Assembly: GCF_009914755.1 (NCBI RefSeq)
Contig: NC_060936.1
Source of the DNA: the human T2T-CHM13v2.0 reference genome, Homo sapiens
Length of the DNA stretch: 64,000 bases
Direction: 5' to 3' (one strand)
Position 1 is the first letter of the stretch. Each line of letters begins with the position of its first letter. Made by a program: the position numbers and the translations under genes. The notes beneath the pieces were generated by a model. The model saw nothing but the letters and a program-made list of their open reading frames with translations. It searched no databases and was not told where the DNA came from. Positions 46,568 to 54,175 of this stretch are shown here, piece by piece.

Positions 46568-47097
46568 CTGAGGAATAGAAGGAGCCTCGCTGGTGATTGG
46601 CTTGTCATCCTGGCCACGCCACCACCCTCCTTCACGTGACTGTGTGCCTCTAGGTGGTTCTAATCATGGTGTGAAGCTGGAAGGACTTGGCGTTTGTTGA
46701 ATGAGTAAGCAAGATGGTGAATGATGAGAGGGGGGTGGCTGGAGGCCTGCTGCACAGGCCATTGTGCAAATGGGGCCACTGGCACTCTGCCTCCATGCCC
46801 ATCTTTTGGGCTGAGAACAAACAGGGAGAATGAACCTTGCTGCTGGCAGACCCCTTTTTCTTTTCTTTTTTTTTTTTTTAAATTTTATTATTATTATACT
46901 TTAAGTTTCAGGGTACATGTGCACAATGTGCAGGTTTGTTACACATGTATACATGTGCCATGTTGGTGTGCTGCACCCATCAACTCGTCATTTAGCATTA
47001 GATATATCTCCTAATGCTATCCCTCCCCACTCCCCCTACCCCACAACAGTCCCCGGTGTGTGATGTTCCCCTTCCTGTGTCCATGTGTTCTCATTGT

Positions 47098-50000
47098 TCA
47101 ATTCTCATCTATGAGTGAGAACATGTGCTGTTTGGTTTTTTGTCCTTGCAATAGTTTGCTGAGAATGATGGTTTCCAGCTTCATCCATGTCCCTACAAAG
47201 GACATGAACTCATCCTTTTTTATGGCTGCATAGTATTCCATGGTGTATATGTGCCACATTTTCTTAATCCAGTCTATCATTGTTGGACATTTCGGTTGGT
47301 TCCAAGTCTCTGCTATTGTGAATAGTGCCGCAATAACCATACATGTGCATGTGTCTTTATAGCAGCATGATTTACAATCCTTTGGGTATATACCCAGTAA
47401 TGGGATGGCTGGGTCAAATGGTATTTCTAGTTCTAGATCCCTGAGGAATCGCCACACCGACTTCCACAATGGTTGAACTAGTTTACAGTCCCACCAACAG
47501 TGTAAAAGTGTTCCTATTTCTCCACATCCTCTCAGCACCTGTTGTTTCCTGACTTTTTAATGATCTCCATTCTAACTGTTGTGAGATGGTATCTCATTGT
47601 GGTTTTGATTTGCATTTCTCTGATGGCCAGTGATGATGAGCATTTTTTCATGTGTTTTTTGGCTGCATAAATGTCTTCTTCTGAGAAGTATCTGTTCATA
47701 TCCTTTGCCCACTTTTTGATGGGGTTGTTTGTTTTTTTCTTGTAAATTTGTTTGAGTTCATTGTAGATTCTGGATATTAGCCCTTTGTCAGATGAGTAGG
47801 TTGCAAAAACTTTCTCCCATTCTGTAGGTTGCCTGTTCACTCTGATGGTGGTTTCTTTTGCTGTGCAGAAGCTCTTCAGTTTAATTAGATCCCATTTGTC
47901 AATTTTGTCTTTTGTTGCCATTGCTTTTGGTGTTTTAGACATGAAGTTCTTACCCATGCCTATGTCCTGAATGGTATTGCCTAGGTTTTCTTCTAGGGTT
48001 TTTATGGTTTTAGGTCTAACATGTAAGTCTTTAATCCATCTTGAATTAATTTTTGTATAAGGTGTAAGGAAGGGATCCAGTTTCAGCTTTCTACATATGG
48101 CTAGCCAGTTTTCCCAGCACCATTTATTAAATAGGGAATCCTTTCCCCATTGCTTGTTTTTGTCAGGTTTGTCAAAGATCAGATAGTTGTAGATATGTGA
48201 CATTATTTCTGAGGGCTCTGTTCTGTTCCATTGGTCTATATCTCTGTTTTGGTACCAGTACCATGCTGTTTTGGTTACCATAGCCTTGTAGTATAGTTTG
48301 AAGTCAGGTAGTGTGATGCCTCCAGCTTTGTTCTTTTGGCTTAGGATTGACTTGGCAATGTGGGCTCTTTTTTGGTTCCATATGAACTTTAAAGTAGTTT
48401 TTTCCAATTCTGTGAAGAAAGTCATTGGTAGCTTGATGGGAATGGCATTGAATCTTTAAATGACCTTGGGCAGTATGGCCATTTTCACAATATTGATTCT
48501 TCCTACCCATGAGCATGGAATGTTCTTCCATTTGTTTGTATCCCCTTTTATTTCATTGAGCAGTGGTTTGTAGTTCTCCTTGAAGAGGTCCTTCACATCC
48601 CTTGTAAGTTGGATTCCTAGGTATTTTATTCTCTTTGAAGCAATTGTGAATGGGAGTTCACTCATGATTTGGCTCTCTGTTTGTCTGTTATTGGTGTATA
48701 AGAATGCTTGTGATTTTTGCACATTGATTTTGTATCCTGAGACTTTGCTGAAGTTGCTTATCAGCTTAAGGAGATTTTGGGCTGAGATGATGGGGTTTTC
48801 TAGATATACAATCATGTCATCTGCAAACAGGGACAATTTGACTTCTTCTTTTCGTAATTGAATGCCCTTTATTTCCTTCTCCTGCTTGATTGCCCTGGCC
48901 AGAACTTCCACACTATGTTGAATAGGAGTGGTGAGAGAGGGCATCCCTGTCTTGTGCCAGTTTTCAAAGGGAATGCTTCCAGTTTTTGCCCATTCAGTAT
49001 GATATTGGCTGTGGGTTTGTCATAGCTAGCTCTTATTATTTTGAGATACATCACATCAATACCTAATTTATTGAGAGTTTTTAGCATGAAGCATTGTTGA
49101 ATTTTGTCAAAGGCTTTTTCTGCATCCATTGAGATAATCATGTGGTTTTTGTCTTTGGTTCTGTTTATATGCTGGATTACGTTTATTGATCTTCGTATGT
49201 TGAACCAGCCTTGCATCCCAGGGAGGAAGCCGACTAGATCATGGTGGATAAACTTTTTGATGTGCTGCTGTATTTGGTTTGCCAGTATTTTATTGAGGAT
49301 TTTTGCATCAATGTTCATCAAGGATATTGGTCTAAAATTCTCTTTTTTGGTTGTGTCTCTGCCAGGCTTTGGTATCAGGATGATTCTGGCCACATAAAAT
49401 GAGTTAGGGAGGATTCCCTCTTTTTCTATTGATTGGAATAGTTTCAGAAGGAATGGTACCAGCTCCTCCTTGTACCTCTGGTAGAATTCGGCTGTGAATC
49501 CATCTGTTCCTGGACTTTTTTTGGTTGGTAAGCTATTGATTATTTCCTCAATTTCAGTGCCTGTTATTGGTATATTCAGAGATTCAACTTCTTCCTGGTT
49601 TAGTCTTGGGAGGATGTATGTGTCAAGGAATTTATCCATTTCTTCTAGATTTTGTAGTTTATTTGCATAGAGGTGTTTATAGTATTCTCTGATGGTAGTT
49701 TGTATTTCTGTGGGATCGGTGGTGATATCCCCTTTATCATTTTTTATTGCGTCTATTTGATTCTTCTCTCTTTTCTTCTTTATTAGTCTTGCTGTCTATC
49801 AATTTTGTTGATCTTTTCAAAAAACCAGCTCCTGAATTCATTAATTTTTTGAAGGGTTTTTTGTGTCTCTATTTCCTTCAGTTCTTCTCTGATCTTAGTT
49901 ATTTCTTGCCTTCTGCTAGCTTTTGAATGTGTTTGCTCTTGCTTCTCTAGTTCTTTTAATTGTGATGTTAGGGTGTCAATTTTAGATCTTTCCTGCTTTC

Positions 50001-50917
50001 TCTTTTGGGCATTTAGTGCTATAAATTTCCCTCTACACACTGCTTTGAATGTGTCCCAGAGATTCTGGTATGTTGTCTTTGTTCTCATTGGTTTCAAAGA
50101 ACACCTTTATTTCTGCCTTCATTTCGTTATGTACCCAGCAGTCATTCAGGAGCAGGTTGTTCAGTTTCCATGTAGTTGAGTGGTTTTGAGTGAGTTTCTT
50201 AATCCTGAGTTCTAGTTTGATTGCACTGTGGTCTGAGAGACAGTTTGTTATAATTTCTGTTCTTTGACATTTGCTGAGGAGTGCTTTACTTCCAACTATG
50301 TGGTCAATTTTGGAATAGGTGTGGTGTGGTGCTGAAAAGAATGTATATTCTGTTGATTTGGGGTGGAGAGTTCTGTAGATGTCTATTAGTTCCGCTTGGT
50401 GCAGAGCTGAGTTCAATTCCTGGGTATCCTTGTTAACTTTCTGTCTCGTTGATCTGTCTAATGTTGACAGTGGGGTGTTAAAGTCTCTGATTATTATTGT
50501 GTAGGAGTCTAAGTCTCTTTGTAGTTCACTAAGGACTTGCTTTATGAATCTGGGTGCTCCTGTATTGGGTGCATATATATTTAGGACAGTTTGCTTTTCT
50601 TGTTGAATTGATCCCTTTACCATTATGTAATGGCCTTCTTTGTCTCTTTTGATCTTTGTTGGTTTAAAGTCTGTTTTATCAGAGACTAGGATTGCAATCC
50701 CTGCCTTTTTCTGTTTTCCATTTGCTTGGTAGATCTTCCTCCATCCCTTTATTTTGAGCCTATGTGTGTGTCTGCACGTGAGATGGGTTTCCTGAATACA
50801 GCACACTGATGGGTCTTGACTCTTTATCCAATTTGCCAGTCTGTGTCTTTTAATTGGAGCATTTAGCCTATTTACATTCAAAGTTAGTATTGTTATATGT
50901 GAATTTGATCCTGTCAT
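47098..50917 (-). pseudogene. L1 ORF2p (endonuclease / reverse transcriptase), broken into at least 6 frames
   Basis: [14 protein letters not shown] (EN start), LFADDMIVY (RT motif) and CWWDCKLVQPLW (C-terminal) lie in separate ORFs: 50033-50917, 49783-50097, 48869-49639, 48456-48944, 47532-48425, 47098-47538. Confidence 0.95.
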
Positions 50918-53022: not shown

Positions 53023-53425
53023 TGCTATTGTTTATAAGAATGAGCAATCAAAACAGGCATGTACCACAGTTTCTTAATCTACTTGTCCATTGGCAAACAC
53101 TTAGGGTGTTTCCATATCTTGGCTATTGTGAATAATGCTCATTTTTGTTTATAGGAGATCAATTTATGGTATCTTCTCTCTCTCTGTCCTTCTCACTCTT
53201 TGCCATGGGGTGATGCAGCAAGAAGGCCCTCCTCAGATTCTTGTCCCTCAGTCTTGGATGTTCTAGCACGATCACTAGGTGAGGTCTCACAATAGGCCAT
53301 TTGCAAGCTGAGGAGCAAGGAAGCCAGTCTGAGTCCCAAATCTGAAGAACCTGGAGTCTACCTTCGAAGGCAGGAAGCATCCAGTATGGGAGAAAGATAT
53401 AGACCTGAAGATAAAGCTAGTTGCA
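53023..53425 (-). other. 5'-transduced mosaic leader of the L1 (MLT2A exon + MaLR piece + unique piece + old L1 piece + short flank)
   Basis: Lies inside the direct repeat gcagaccccttt (46846-46857 / 53426-53437). It has abrupt junctions between unrelated repeat fragments. Confidence 0.75.
53268..53425 (-). mobile_element. MLT2A-family (ERVL) LTR fragment, from about the TSS to the splice donor
   Basis: Minus strand reads atctttctcccatactggatgcttcctgccttcgaa...ttgctcctcagcttgcaaatggcctattgtgagacctcacctagtgatcgt, matching remembered MLT2A1/A2 consensus. Confidence 0.8.
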
Positions 53426-54175
53426 GCAGACCCCTTTCTCTATCACAAAGTGTCAGATTAGTAAGACTCATTCTTGGGCACAGATGCCCAGGGAAGCCCC
53501 TTGAGGTCATTCTATGAATGAAGTAATGTTGCCTGCTGAAATCATGAAAAGCAACCCAGGAGTAAGTATATCTCCCATTGGCAAAAACTGCTCAGACTTC
53601 AAAGCACCCCATTCTATCACCATTGCAGAATCTCTATGGGTATGTGACTGCCCCAACCCCATTCAATTCTAAAATTTCCATGGCCACAAGCACTCCTTTT
53701 GGTTATTTAGTAAACACCAGATACTTCAGGCATGTTTAGGGGGGACTGGGGACAAAATCACAATATATAGTTGATGCTTCATTATTCTCTATTAGTAGAT
53801 AATGAAACATCTATTATCTACTGCTGTTTACCTCTTTGGACATTTTTTAGCTCATGATTACTTAGATGAGAACAAGTTTTGAAAGGGAGAGGATGAAGGG
53901 AGGAGTTGAGTCTTTGGGGAGTGTGGTCCAAGGAGGCAAAGGGGACTAACAGGCAGGTGGGAAGGTGTGGCCGGTGAAGAGTCTCACACCATGGATGGCA
54001 TTTGCTGTTTGAAGGAAAGGCACTCAGCAGGAAAGGCTAAGGAGAAAGACCCCTTCTGCTGTGAGGATTTCAAATCACACTTGCTTCATTTTACCCAGTT
54101 TGTAGGTGGTAGAGAAATAGGGAGATTTCAGGACCAGGCAAAATAATATTTGTTTCTTCTGCTACAAGAATTATT

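What the first reader, a model, noticed from the sequence alone, without database searches (positions are those of the whole stretch)
46846..53437. Full-length L1 apparently mobilised from a spliced chimeric transcript driven by an MLT2A LTR (5' transduction)
Seen: the 12-bp repeat gcagaccccttt abuts the L1 poly(A) (46846-46857). Its partner is not at the L1 5' end (53022) but 403 bp further out (53426-53437). Read in L1 sense, the enclosed DNA is a patchwork: 158 nt of MLT2A-type LTR (53425-53268), 95 nt antisense MaLR-like (53267-53173), 35 nt unassigned (53172-53138), ~80 nt of older L1 3' sequence (53137-53059), then 36 nt joined to the L1 5' end. Known: MLT2A1/A2 LTRs are DUX4-responsive promoters active around human zygotic genome activation and carry a splice donor downstream of their TSS; L1 5' transductions arise when an upstream promoter reads into a source L1. 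Inference: an LTR promoter drove a spliced RNA through a source L1, and the whole RNA was retrotransposed here. This would be a fossil of LTR-licensed L1 jumping in the early embryo, independent of the L1's own promoter.
Basis: partly seen in the sequence, partly recalled or inferred. Interest (0 to 1): 0.88.

Follow-up and report, generated by a model that had tools for sequence, protein, structure and literature searches.

The report
L1 copy with spliced LTR-transcript leader
An old, dead L1 jumping gene on chromosome 12 was inserted together with a 403-base leader copied from a spliced RNA that began in a retroviral LTR on chromosome 4; this is a rare but already described kind of L1 chimera, and it records which other RNA was present when the jump happened.

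Summary
One exact 12-bp duplication (46846-46857 and 53426-53437) encloses a poly(A) tail, a full-length minus-strand L1 (46880-53022) and a 403-nt leader. No better duplication lies at the L1 5' end.

In the T2T genome, leader nt 5-369 map in order to the minus strand of chr4:23.63-23.65 Mb as four exons. The three missing introns are canonical GT-AG. Exon 1 starts about 30 nt after a TATA-like box inside an intact 434-bp ERV-L LTR and ends at that LTR family's conserved GTGAGT donor.

- Exon 4 is cut internally, with no donor site.
- The last 34 nt come from chr5 (33 of 34, the only other genomic match).
- The full-length L1 lying 1.2 kb downstream on chr4 belongs to a different L1 lineage.

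One retrotransposition event therefore integrated a composite cDNA. I estimate 0.5 for read-through from a now-lost L1 nested in exon 4, itself carrying a 34-nt chr5 flank. I estimate 0.37 for reverse-transcriptase template switching between separate RNAs.

This class is in print (Law & Burns, 17 cases), but this locus is not in their table. It is a new member of a known kind.

The parts
46846..46857 (.). Target-site duplication, the copy next to the L1 poly(A) (gcagaccccttt on the + strand)
   Evidence: It is one of only two copies of this 12-mer in the window and it abuts the T-run.
46858..46879 (-). L1 poly(A) tail, 22 nt, interrupted (reads AAAAAAAAAAAAAAGAAAAGAA in L1 sense)
46880..53022 (-). 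Full-length L1 of about 6.14 kb. It keeps the 5'UTR start GGAGGAGCGAAGATGGCC. ORF1 and ORF2 are broken into pieces.
   Evidence: One search finds 7 minus-strand ORFs of 104-297 aa. One search finds L1 ORF1p domains, endonuclease and RT domains in separate pieces. Searches give 93-96% identity to other full-length L1s.
53023..53056 (-). 34-nt piece of chr5 origin, lying between exon 4 and the L1 5' end. It matches chr5:59173639-59173672 at 33 of 34.
   Evidence: One search finds only 2 places in the genome at 3 or fewer mismatches, and the reversed-pattern control finds 0. One search finds no L1 within 1.5 kb on chr5 and no AG/GT at the borders. One search shows it is absent from chr4:23.58-23.66 Mb.
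53057..53137 (-). Exon 4 of the chr4 transcript (81 nt), made from an old L1 ORF2 3' fragment in sense. It is cut internally.
   Evidence: It matches chr4:23630776-23630700 with 6 mismatches and one 4-nt indel. The acceptor on chr4 is TTATTGCAG|CATTATTC. The next bases on chr4 are ATACCA, so there is no donor.
53138..53172 (-). Exon 3 (35 nt)
   Evidence: It matches chr4:23638306-23638272 at 33 of 35. The acceptor is CTTTAG| and the donor is |GTATCT.
53173..53267 (-). Exon 2 (95 nt)
   Evidence: It matches chr4:23644374-23644280 at 88 of 95, and this is the only non-self genomic hit for this block among the 40 candidates scored. The acceptor is CTGAAG| and the donor is |GTAAGA.
53268..53421 (-). 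Exon 1 (154 nt). This is the transcribed part of an ERV-L LTR, from the putative start site to the LTR's GTGAGT splice donor. The LTR promoter half is not present here.
   Evidence: It matches chr4:23650316-23650163 at 143 of 154, the best of the 39 non-self hits. Searches place it at LTR positions 206-359 of 434.
53422..53425 (-). 4 nt (TGCA in L1 sense) between the TSD and exon 1 that map to neither chr4 nor the flank
   Evidence: The chr4 sequence at this position is CTAG (0 of 4 match).
53426..53437 (.). Target-site duplication, the copy at the outer end of the leader

Best explanation
One L1 target-primed reverse transcription event, roughly 13-30 million years ago, inserted a composite cDNA at this chr12 site.

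The cDNA has three parts, listed 5' to 3'.
1. A 5'-complete copy of a non-coding RNA that started in an ERV-L (MLT2-type) LTR on chr4. Its three GT-AG introns had been removed, and it extended 81 nt into its fourth exon.
2. 34 nt of chr5 sequence.
3. A full-length L1 with poly(A).

The most likely route is a relay of 5' transductions through L1 alleles that no longer exist.
- An L1 sat at chr5:59,173,672 and was transcribed from at least 34 nt upstream of its 5' end.
- That RNA inserted into exon 4 of the chr4 LTR-driven unit, in sense.
- The LTR promoter then produced a spliced RNA, exon 1-2-3, part of exon 4, the 34 nt and the L1, ending at the L1 poly(A) signal.
- That RNA was copied into chr12.

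Shown: the single-unit insertion, the chr4 and chr5 origins, the splicing, and the LTR start. Inferred: the two lost intermediate alleles and the cell type. The new copy carries only the transcribed part of the LTR, not its promoter, so the trick could not repeat from this locus.
For: **Single unit**
- There is a 12-bp TSD, one poly(A), and no alternative TSD longer than 7 nt at the L1 5' end.
- No A-tract lies inside the leader.

**Origin on chr4 and splicing**
- The four blocks are collinear on one strand of chr4 within 19.6 kb.
- Intron borders are GTGAGT..GAAG, GTAAGA..TTAG and GTATCT..GCAG. Intron lengths are 5,788, 5,973 and 7,495 nt.

**LTR start**
- The leader starts at position 206 of a 434-bp LTR. 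An AATAAAA box lies at -34..-28.
- The TATA-like box and the GTGAGT donor are each present in 8 of 10 other LTR copies examined.
- The same LTR family flanks a chr11 provirus with an integrase core followed by dUTPase.

**Age**
- The leader differs from chr4 at 26 of 361 positions (7.2%).
- The L1 lies about 2.3-3.2% from the inferred ancestral nodes, so about 5-6.5% would be expected between two copies.

**Cis relay**
- Both non-splice junctions lie at TSD-like distances downstream of a 5-of-6 match to the L1 endonuclease consensus TT/AAAA. TT/AAGA lies 19 nt before the exon 4 break in the window copy. TT/ATAA lies 13 nt before the 34-nt/L1 junction, in both the window and chr5.
- The background frequency of such a match is 9-17% per site.
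- AATAAA lies 62 nt downstream of the break on chr4, so the break could sit in a terminal exon.
- Other full-length L1s are nested in the same part of old L1 fragments in the same orientation.
- A proven cis case (RAP1GDS1-L1PA2) is in print.
Against: - Neither postulated intermediate allele exists in T2T-CHM13. The chr5 site has no L1 within 1.5 kb, and chr4 exon 4 is uninterrupted.
- No sibling copy carries the leader or the 34-mer. Searches find only the window itself and the chr5 34-mer.
- The endonuclease-site argument is post hoc and weak. The chr12 target of the real insertion matches TT/AAAA at only 3 of 6.
- The chr4 site today reads TT/AAGG (4 of 6). The 5-of-6 score assumes that the window copy keeps the ancestral base.
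- Law & Burns report that for most of their 17 comparable chimeras no source L1 lies in the donor gene, and they consider joining of two separate RNAs.
- The full-length L1 1.2 kb downstream on chr4 plays no part in this model, so its position is an unexplained coincidence.
Confidence: 0.5

Rival explanations
1. Template switching, or another way of joining separate RNAs. In this model L1 reverse transcriptase copied a full-length L1 RNA to its 5' end. That RNA came either from a lost chr5 source with a 34-nt upstream start, or the 34 nt were copied in an extra short jump onto a chr5 RNA. The enzyme then jumped onto an unrelated RNA in the same cell, the LTR-driven spliced chr4 RNA, at an internal or degraded 3' end in exon 4. 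It copied that RNA to its cap. RNA ligation before reverse transcription is a variant of the same idea.
For: - Two junctions are not splice junctions and show no microhomology.
- The parts come from three chromosomes.
- No source L1 sits at chr5, and the chr4 L1 is not the source.
- All parts share one orientation, with a single poly(A) and a single TSD, as in published chimeric retrocopies.
- Double template jumps are described for LINE chimeras (PMC2104539, listing and abstract).
- Template switching is one of the mechanisms listed by Law & Burns.
Against: - This model does not predict endonuclease-like sites 13 and 19 nt upstream of the two junctions. By chance each occurs at 9-17% of sites.
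- It needs a jump to an internal position of the acceptor RNA.
- If the 34 nt came from a separate RNA, it needs two jumps with only 34 nt copied between them.
- Rfam finds no known small RNA at the chr5 34-mer.
Confidence: 0.37
2. The LTR-driven chr4 RNA ran or spliced into the full-length L1 that still lies 1.2 kb downstream of exon 4 (chr4:23,629,469-23,623,438, minus strand), and that RNA was retrotransposed.
For: A full-length L1 in the same orientation starts 1,230 nt downstream of exon 4. Its identity to the window L1 is 93.9%.
Against: - The chr4 L1 lacks 128 nt that the window L1 has (window L1 nt 773-900). It falls in a separate, well-supported clade together with the other chr4 L1.
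- It shares only 7 of the 192 sites where the window L1 departs from the majority, against 40 for the window L1's nearest relative.
- It is not among the 40 best genomic matches to either end of the window L1.
- Its 5' flank is ...AAAAAAAGGCTGCACTG, not the 34-mer.
- None of the 1,230 nt between exon 4 and that L1 is in the leader.
Confidence: 0.03
3. The L1 and the leader are not one insertion. In this model the 12-bp repeat is chance and the 403 nt either pre-existed at the site or arrived separately, for example as a separate retrocopy of the chr4 RNA.
For: - Orthologous empty sites could not be examined.
- The endonuclease site at the chr12 target is poor, 3 of 6.
Against: - The exact 12-mer occurs only twice in 64 kb, once abutting the poly(A) and once at the outer end of the leader. 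The control gave 35 of 20,000.
- The leader has no poly(A) of its own at its 3' end.
- No alternative TSD lies at the L1 5' end.
- The divergence of the leader fits the age of the L1.
Confidence: 0.03

Closest known systems
L1 chimeras with mRNA or lncRNA first exons at the L1 5' end (Law & Burns, bioRxiv 10.1101/2025.02.02.635956; Cell Genomics 2026, PMC13174262). I read two Results sections, two Methods sections, passages, and Supplementary Table 5 part 1 plus term searches.
   Same: - A near full-length L1 is involved.
- The leader starts at the first exon and start site of a spliced RNA, in sense orientation.
- One TSD encloses both the leader and the L1.
- No source L1 lies in the donor locus, which is true for most of their cases.
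- Short unmapped or extra pieces lie at the junction with the L1.
   Different: - This locus is not in their table. In that file 'chr12' occurs only twice, both for a source at chr12:78.8 Mb.
- Here the leader starts in an ERV-L LTR and is built mostly of repeat-derived exons.
- The last exon is cut internally, not at a donor. Six of their 17 cases end at donors.
- The junction filler is 34 nt templated from another chromosome.
RAP1GDS1-L1PA2 chimeras (same paper): a host promoter drives an intronic L1 by read-through plus cis-splicing
   Same: An external promoter and upstream exons are spliced ahead of an L1 and retrotransposed. A short stretch of source flank (15 bp in their case, 34 nt here) is retained between the last exon and the L1.
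   Different: In their case the source L1 still exists in the intron and several progeny exist. Here no source survives, no sibling exists, the joint to the flank is not a splice site, and the flank maps to another chromosome.
Chimeric retrogenes made by L1 RT template switching (U6/L1 and related; tripartite chimeras from double template jumps, PMC2104539, listing and abstract only)
   Same: Copies of different RNAs are fused head to tail in one orientation, with one poly(A) and one TSD. Some are three-part structures.
   Different: As I recall, the classic cases have a 5'-truncated L1 or Alu as the 3' part and a small nuclear RNA as the 5' part. Here the L1 is full length and the 5' part is a spliced Pol II transcript cut inside an exon.
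Classical L1 5' transduction (read-through from an upstream promoter; recalled general knowledge, not read here)
   Same: Non-L1 sequence lies between the 5' TSD and the L1 5' end and maps to a unique locus elsewhere.
   Different: The classic case is contiguous, unspliced flank of an identifiable source L1. Here the leader is spliced, comes from two chromosomes, and no source is found.
MLT2A1/MLT2A2 (HERV-L LTR) promoters that drive chimeric transcripts in DUX4-expressing cells and 4-8-cell human embryos (PMC3836709 and PMC10616205, passages read)
   Same: The chr4 LTR belongs to an LTR family that flanks an ERV-L provirus. It has a TATA-like box, a start site and a conserved splice donor, and it initiates a spliced non-coding transcript.
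   Different: Subfamily membership was not assigned. The chr4 LTR has only 10-of-11 matches to the DUX4 motif. No expression data for this LTR were seen.

Membership tests
L1 insertion by target-primed reverse transcription | Poly(A) tail at the 3' end, directly followed by one copy of a target-site duplication | tested here: met
   A 22-nt interrupted A-tract lies at 46858-46879, followed by the 12-mer.
L1 insertion by target-primed reverse transcription | A second TSD copy at the 5' end of the inserted unit | tested here: met
   An exact 12 of 12 match lies at 53426-53437. It is the only other copy in the window, and the control gave 35 of 20,000.
L1 insertion by target-primed reverse transcription | A target resembling the endonuclease consensus TT/AAAA | tested here: inconclusive
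   The best match at TSD lengths of 7-20 nt is 3 of 6. The TSD itself starts AAAG.
Full-length L1 | 5'UTR start, ORF1p, endonuclease and RT domains in order over about 6.1 kb | tested here: met
   Pfam finds Transposase_22 and Tnp_22_dsRBD, Exo_endo_phos and RVT_1 in broken pieces. The element aligns end to end with 12 full-length L1s, namely 10 of the 12 fetched copies plus the two chr4 L1s.
Processed (spliced) RNA copy | Collinear blocks at a donor locus, with the missing intervals bounded by GT...AG | tested here: met
   3 of 3 introns have GT-AG borders.
Cis 5' transduction from a source L1 | At the donor locus, the transduced sequence lies directly upstream of a source L1 related to the progeny | tested here: not met
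   The chr5 site has no L1. The chr4 L1 is 1,230 nt away, belongs to another lineage and lacks the 34-mer. Lost alleles cannot be tested in one genome.
Trans-splicing type L1 chimera (Law & Burns) | The last exon ends exactly at its splice donor where it meets the L1 | tested here: not met
   Exon 4 is followed on chr4 by ATACCA, so there is no GT. 34 foreign nt intervene before the L1.
Template-switch chimeric retrocopy | Parts from different loci fused in one orientation at non-splice junctions, inside one TSD and with one poly(A) | tested here: met
   The act of switching itself cannot be shown from sequence.
ERV-L LTR (MLT2 group) | The LTR family flanks proviruses whose pol carries a dUTPase after the integrase | tested here: met
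   On chr11 two LTR copies lie 8.3 kb apart and are 90% identical to each other. The chr4 LTR is 79-81% identical to them. Between them lie rve (E 1.4e-11) and then dUTPase (E 2.9e-9). That dUTPase after integrase marks ERV-L is recalled knowledge.
MLT2A1/MLT2A2 subfamily | Assignment by RepeatMasker or Dfam consensus | not testable with these tools
   No repeat library is held. The 2,556 first-look candidates fit a family of a few thousand copies; PMC3836709 gives 3,780 MLT2A1 and 3,898 MLT2A2.
DUX4-responsive LTR promoter | DUX4 motif TAAT[T/C][T/C]AATCA near the start site, and DUX4- or embryo-dependent transcription | tested here: inconclusive
   CAATCTAATCA (10 of 11) lies at -62..-52, and a second 10-of-11 match lies in the LTR on the other strand. 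There is no exact site, and 4 near-matches in 10 kb compares with 2.66 expected. Expression is not testable here.

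The most novel reading that the evidence does not exclude
The locus may be the end point of a three-stop relay: chr5 to chr4 exon 4 to chr12. In this reading an L1 lineage picked up flanking sequence at each stop. Its last, heritable jump was transcribed not from the L1's own 5'UTR but from an ERV-L (MLT2A-type) LTR, the kind of promoter that fires at human genome activation. 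That would make it a genomic fossil showing that an embryonic retroviral promoter licensed germline-transmitted L1 mobilisation, possibly bypassing repression aimed at the L1 5'UTR.
Probability: 0.4. Interest if true: 0.7.

Novelty: new member of a known kind. Interest (0 to 1): 0.55.

Why it matters
When and in which cells heritable L1 jumps happen is hard to learn from old insertions. A leader copied from another RNA acts as a time-and-place stamp. Under either mechanism, the L1 machinery and a spliced RNA started by an ERV-L LTR were in the same germline-contributing cell.

If the LTR is of the MLT2A type, which is active at the 4-8-cell stage, that points to the early embryo.

The case also suggests that published catalogues of such chimeras may undercount them. 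That is an inference, because this leader is mostly repeat-derived and comes from a transcript that may not be annotated. A screen for L1 leaders that start at LTR start sites and end at LTR splice donors would test this.

Tried and rejected
- **Paralogous empty site.** Both flanks of the insertion are unique in the genome. The left flank gave only 40-53-nt partial hits, and the right flank matched only itself. This test was therefore impossible.
- **Sibling copies.** No other locus carries the leader junctions or the 34-mer next to an L1.
- **The 34-mer as a known small RNA.** Rfam at E up to 1 found nothing on the leader or on the chr5 34-mer. It found only Alu-like, below-threshold hits elsewhere.
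- **The 34-mer as a continuation of the old L1 fragment, or as L1 5' sequence.** Matches of other loci that reach into it are A-rich target sites of other L1s, or two unrelated nested L1s. Rejected.
- **Segmental duplication with the neighbouring L1.** The neighbour has its own 16-bp TSD and no leader. Rejected.
- **U12-type or other non-canonical splicing at the exon 4 break.** The chr4 sequence ATACCATGG is not a convincing donor, and chr5 has no acceptor. Not supported.
- **Malformed queries.** Two calls were rejected for their syntax.
- **Law & Burns PDF supplements.** Files mmc1, mmc6 and mmc7 could not be read and might hold further cases.

Full report
**1. The observation**

The window is T2T-CHM13 chr12:129,022,001-129,086,000. 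On the + strand, gcagaccccttt sits at 46846-46857. It runs straight into a 22-nt T-rich tract (46858-46879), which is the poly(A) of a minus-strand L1. The same 12-mer recurs at 53426-53437.

These are the only two copies on either strand of the window. The next-best exact match between the 58 nt left of the poly(A) and the 778 nt beyond the L1 5' end is 7 nt. A random 12-mer recurred in an 800-nt window 6.2 kb away in 35 of 20,000 trials.

The L1 5' end (GGAGGAGCGAAGATGGCC...) is at 53022, so 403 nt lie between it and the outer repeat. The L1 is full length but dead:
- There are 7 minus-strand ORFs of 104-297 aa.
- ORF1p, endonuclease and RT domains are found in separate pieces.

The TSD could extend to 16 nt with one mismatch (sequences). 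The target matches the endonuclease consensus TT/AAAA at only 3 of 6.

**2. Where the leader comes from**

I searched the window's own genome with the 403 nt. Of 2,556 first-look candidates, 40 were scored. Only the window itself covers the full length. The other 39 hits cover only parts of nt 4-163. The best is chr4:23,650,162-23,650,316 on the minus strand, at 93%.

The rest of the leader gave three results:
- For nt 159-256, a single non-self hit at chr4:23,644,277-23,644,374, minus strand, 92%.
- For the old-L1 block, the top hit at chr4:23,630,700-23,630,778, minus strand, 88% (40 of 546 candidates scored).
- For the 35-nt block, after I fetched chr4:23.58-23.66 Mb, a match at chr4:23,638,306-23,638,272.

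| Block | Window | chr4 (minus strand) | Differences |
|---|---|---|---|
| Exon 1 | 53421-53268 | 23,650,316-23,650,163 | 11 of 154 |
| Exon 2 | 53267-53173 | 23,644,374-23,644,280 | 7 of 95 |
| Exon 3 | 53172-53138 | 23,638,306-23,638,272 | 2 of 35 |
| Exon 4 | 53137-53057 | 23,630,776-23,630,700 | 6 mismatches + one 4-nt indel in 81 |

The missing intervals are 5,788, 5,973 and 7,495 nt. They are bounded by GTGAGT...GAAG, GTAAGA...TTAG and GTATCT...GCAG.

Leader nt 1-4 (TGCA) do not match chr4, which has CTAG there.

**3. The first exon is LTR-derived**

The chr4 element aligns over 434 bp (23,650,521-23,650,088) with two direct repeats that lie 8.3 kb apart on chr11 and are 90% identical to each other. 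Between those repeats lie an integrase core and then a dUTPase. From recall, that order is the ERV-L hallmark, so the LTR is of the MLT2 group. The subfamily could not be named.

The leader begins at LTR position 206. An AATAAAA box lies at -34..-28. The exon ends at a GTGAGT donor at position 360.

Across 10 other LTR copies, the AATAAAA box and the GTGAGT donor are each kept in 8 of 10. The RNA was therefore copied to, or very near, its 5' end.

The new copy holds only LTR positions 206-359, not the promoter half.

On the link to DUX4:
- Young et al. (PMC3836709, passages) list MLT2A1 and MLT2A2 as primate-specific ERV-L LTRs that DUX4 binds and activates.
- Torre et al. (PMC10616205, passages) list MLT2A1 among LTR promoters of embryo isoforms.
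- The DUX4 consensus TAAT[T/C][T/C]AATCA (PMC4730607, passages) is matched only 10 of 11 at -62..-52 of the chr4 LTR, with no statistical enrichment.

The DUX4 and embryo link is therefore inference.

**4.

- **Exon 4 is cut internally.** It ends 81 nt in. The next chr4 bases are ATACCA, which is not a donor.
- **The last 34 nt are not from chr4.** The piece (53056-53023) is absent from the 80-kb chr4 region. Genome-wide at 3 or fewer mismatches it has one other match, chr5:59,173,639-59,173,672, at 33 of 34, in the L1-sense orientation. The reversed-pattern control found 0.
- **The chr5 site has no L1 and no splice signals.** No L1 lies within 1.5 kb, and the borders lack AG/GT.
- **The chr4 L1 is not the source.**
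  - A full-length L1 does start 1,230 nt downstream of exon 4 on chr4 in the same orientation, but its 5' flank is not the 34-mer.
  - In an alignment and tree of the window L1, both chr4 L1s and 12 of the best genomic matches, the two chr4 L1s form their own clade (support 0.999). They lack 128 nt (window L1 nt 773-900) that all the others have.
  - They share 7 and 6 of the 192 sites where the window L1 departs from the majority.
  - Neither chr4 L1 is among the 40 best hits to the window L1's 3' 600 nt (best 96%) or 5' 800 nt (best 92%).

The window L1's nearest relative in this sample is a neighbour 12 kb away. It has its own TSD and no leader.

**5. Age**

The leader differs from chr4 at 26 of 361 positions, or 7.2%. 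Only one of these differences is in a CpG context. A Poisson range of about 4.7-10.5% is my own estimate.

The L1 lies 2.3-3.2% from the inferred ancestral nodes, so 5-6.5% would be expected between two copies that separated at the time of insertion. The two figures agree. With recalled primate neutral rates, this places the event roughly 13-30 million years ago. That fits an L1PA3-L1PA5-type element, but the subfamily was not assigned.

**6. Mechanism**

It is firmly shown that one TPRT event integrated a composite cDNA made of an LTR-initiated, triply spliced chr4 RNA, 34 nt of chr5, and a full-length L1. How the parts were joined is inferred.

I favour a cis relay (0.5). In it, an L1 at the chr5 site was transcribed from at least 34 nt upstream. 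It inserted into exon 4 of the chr4 unit. The LTR then produced a spliced read-through RNA that ended at the L1 poly(A) signal and was copied to chr12. Neither intermediate allele survives in this genome.

Support for the cis relay:
- The two non-splice junctions lie 19 nt and 13 nt downstream of 5-of-6 matches to TT/AAAA. These are TT/AAGA in the window copy (TT/AAGG on chr4 today) and TT/ATAA in both the window and chr5.
- Such a match occurs at 9-17% of random positions.
- AATAAA lies 62 nt past the break on chr4.
- Nested L1s sit in the same region of old L1 fragments elsewhere.

This support is post hoc and modest. The real chr12 target itself scores only 3 of 6.

The close rival (0.37) is reverse-transcriptase template switching, or another way of joining separate RNAs. 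That route needs no lost chr4 allele, and it is one of the mechanisms discussed for this class.

The remaining 0.07 is left for routes I have not modelled.

**7. Comparison with what is known**

Law & Burns describe 17 hg38 L1 insertions with mRNA or lncRNA first exons at the 5' end. I read Results sections 24-25 and Methods sections 8 and 10 of the bioRxiv version, passages of the Cell Genomics version, and Supplementary Table 5 part 1 with term searches. Their cases are mostly near full-length L1s in sense orientation:
- 6 end at splice donors.
- 4 have short untemplated junction sequence.
- One proven cis case (RAP1GDS1-L1PA2) keeps 15 bp of source flank.

The present locus is not in their tables. 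By my offset estimate it lies at about hg38 chr12:129.04 Mb. The strings 12903 and 12904 are absent from all four spreadsheets. In the 5'-transduction table, 'chr12' occurs twice, both for a source at chr12:78.8 Mb, and there are no 'LTR', 'ERV' or 'MLT' strings.

Their pipeline annotates upstream sequence by BLAST against RNAcentral, Gencode and Rfam. A repeat-built leader from a possibly unannotated transcript could be missed; that is my inference. Their PDF supplements could not be read.

A full-text search for LINE-1 + transduction + MLT2A1 + retrotransposition found 5 papers, of which 4 were listed. By title and abstract, none concerns LTR-driven L1 mobilisation.

**8. Verdict**

This is a new member of a known kind. 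Its useful twist is that the co-mobilised RNA was started by an ERV-L LTR.

Noticed in passing
Outside the window: chr12:129,087,217-129,093,383 (T2T), minus strand (locus L040), about 12 kb beyond the L1 studied: A second full-length L1 in the same orientation is the closest relative of the window L1 in the sample.
- Overall identity is 95.9%. It is sister to the window L1 with support 1.000 and shares 40 of 192 rare variants.
- The similarity is patchy: 98.4-98.6% over L1 nt 1501-2500, but ordinary over 2501-4000.
- It has its own 16-bp TSD (AGAATGCACCCATCCC), and a short non-A stretch lies between two A-runs at its 3' end.

Gene conversion between neighbours, or a shared source, could explain this.
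   Followed up: partly
chr4:23,596,460-23,602,505 (+) and 23,623,438-23,629,469 (-), loci L031-L034: Two full-length L1s lie about 21 kb apart in opposite orientations. Both are about 6,020-6,028 nt long and both lack the same 128 nt just before ORF1. They are sisters in the tree (0.999). They are probably a shorter, possibly younger subfamily, but the subfamily was not assigned.
   Followed up: partly
L052 (chr11:124,933,400-124,943,000): This is an ERV-L provirus with two LTRs that are 90% identical to each other. Degraded integrase and dUTPase frames lie between them. The 3' part of one LTR is interrupted by a palindromic repeat. It was only observed.
   Followed up: partly
L022 (chr12:10,236,706-10,236,868) and L023 (chr14:31,545,921-31,546,101): In two other loci a full-length L1 5' end directly follows the same part of an old L1 ORF2 3' fragment in the same orientation. 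I read these as ordinary nested insertions at A-rich sites, not as relatives of this leader.
   Followed up: partly
window 53422-53425: Four nucleotides (TGCA in L1 sense) between the TSD and the LTR-derived exon match neither the flank nor chr4. They may be untemplated addition at the 5' junction, or a start site slightly different from today's chr4 sequence.
   Followed up: no
chr4:23,650,368-23,650,378 and 23,650,490-23,650,500 (L037 368-378 and 490-500): Two 10-of-11 matches to the DUX4 motif fall inside the 434-bp LTR. Both have C instead of T at the first position. Most other LTR copies examined keep ATCTAATCA at the first of these sites.
   Followed up: partly
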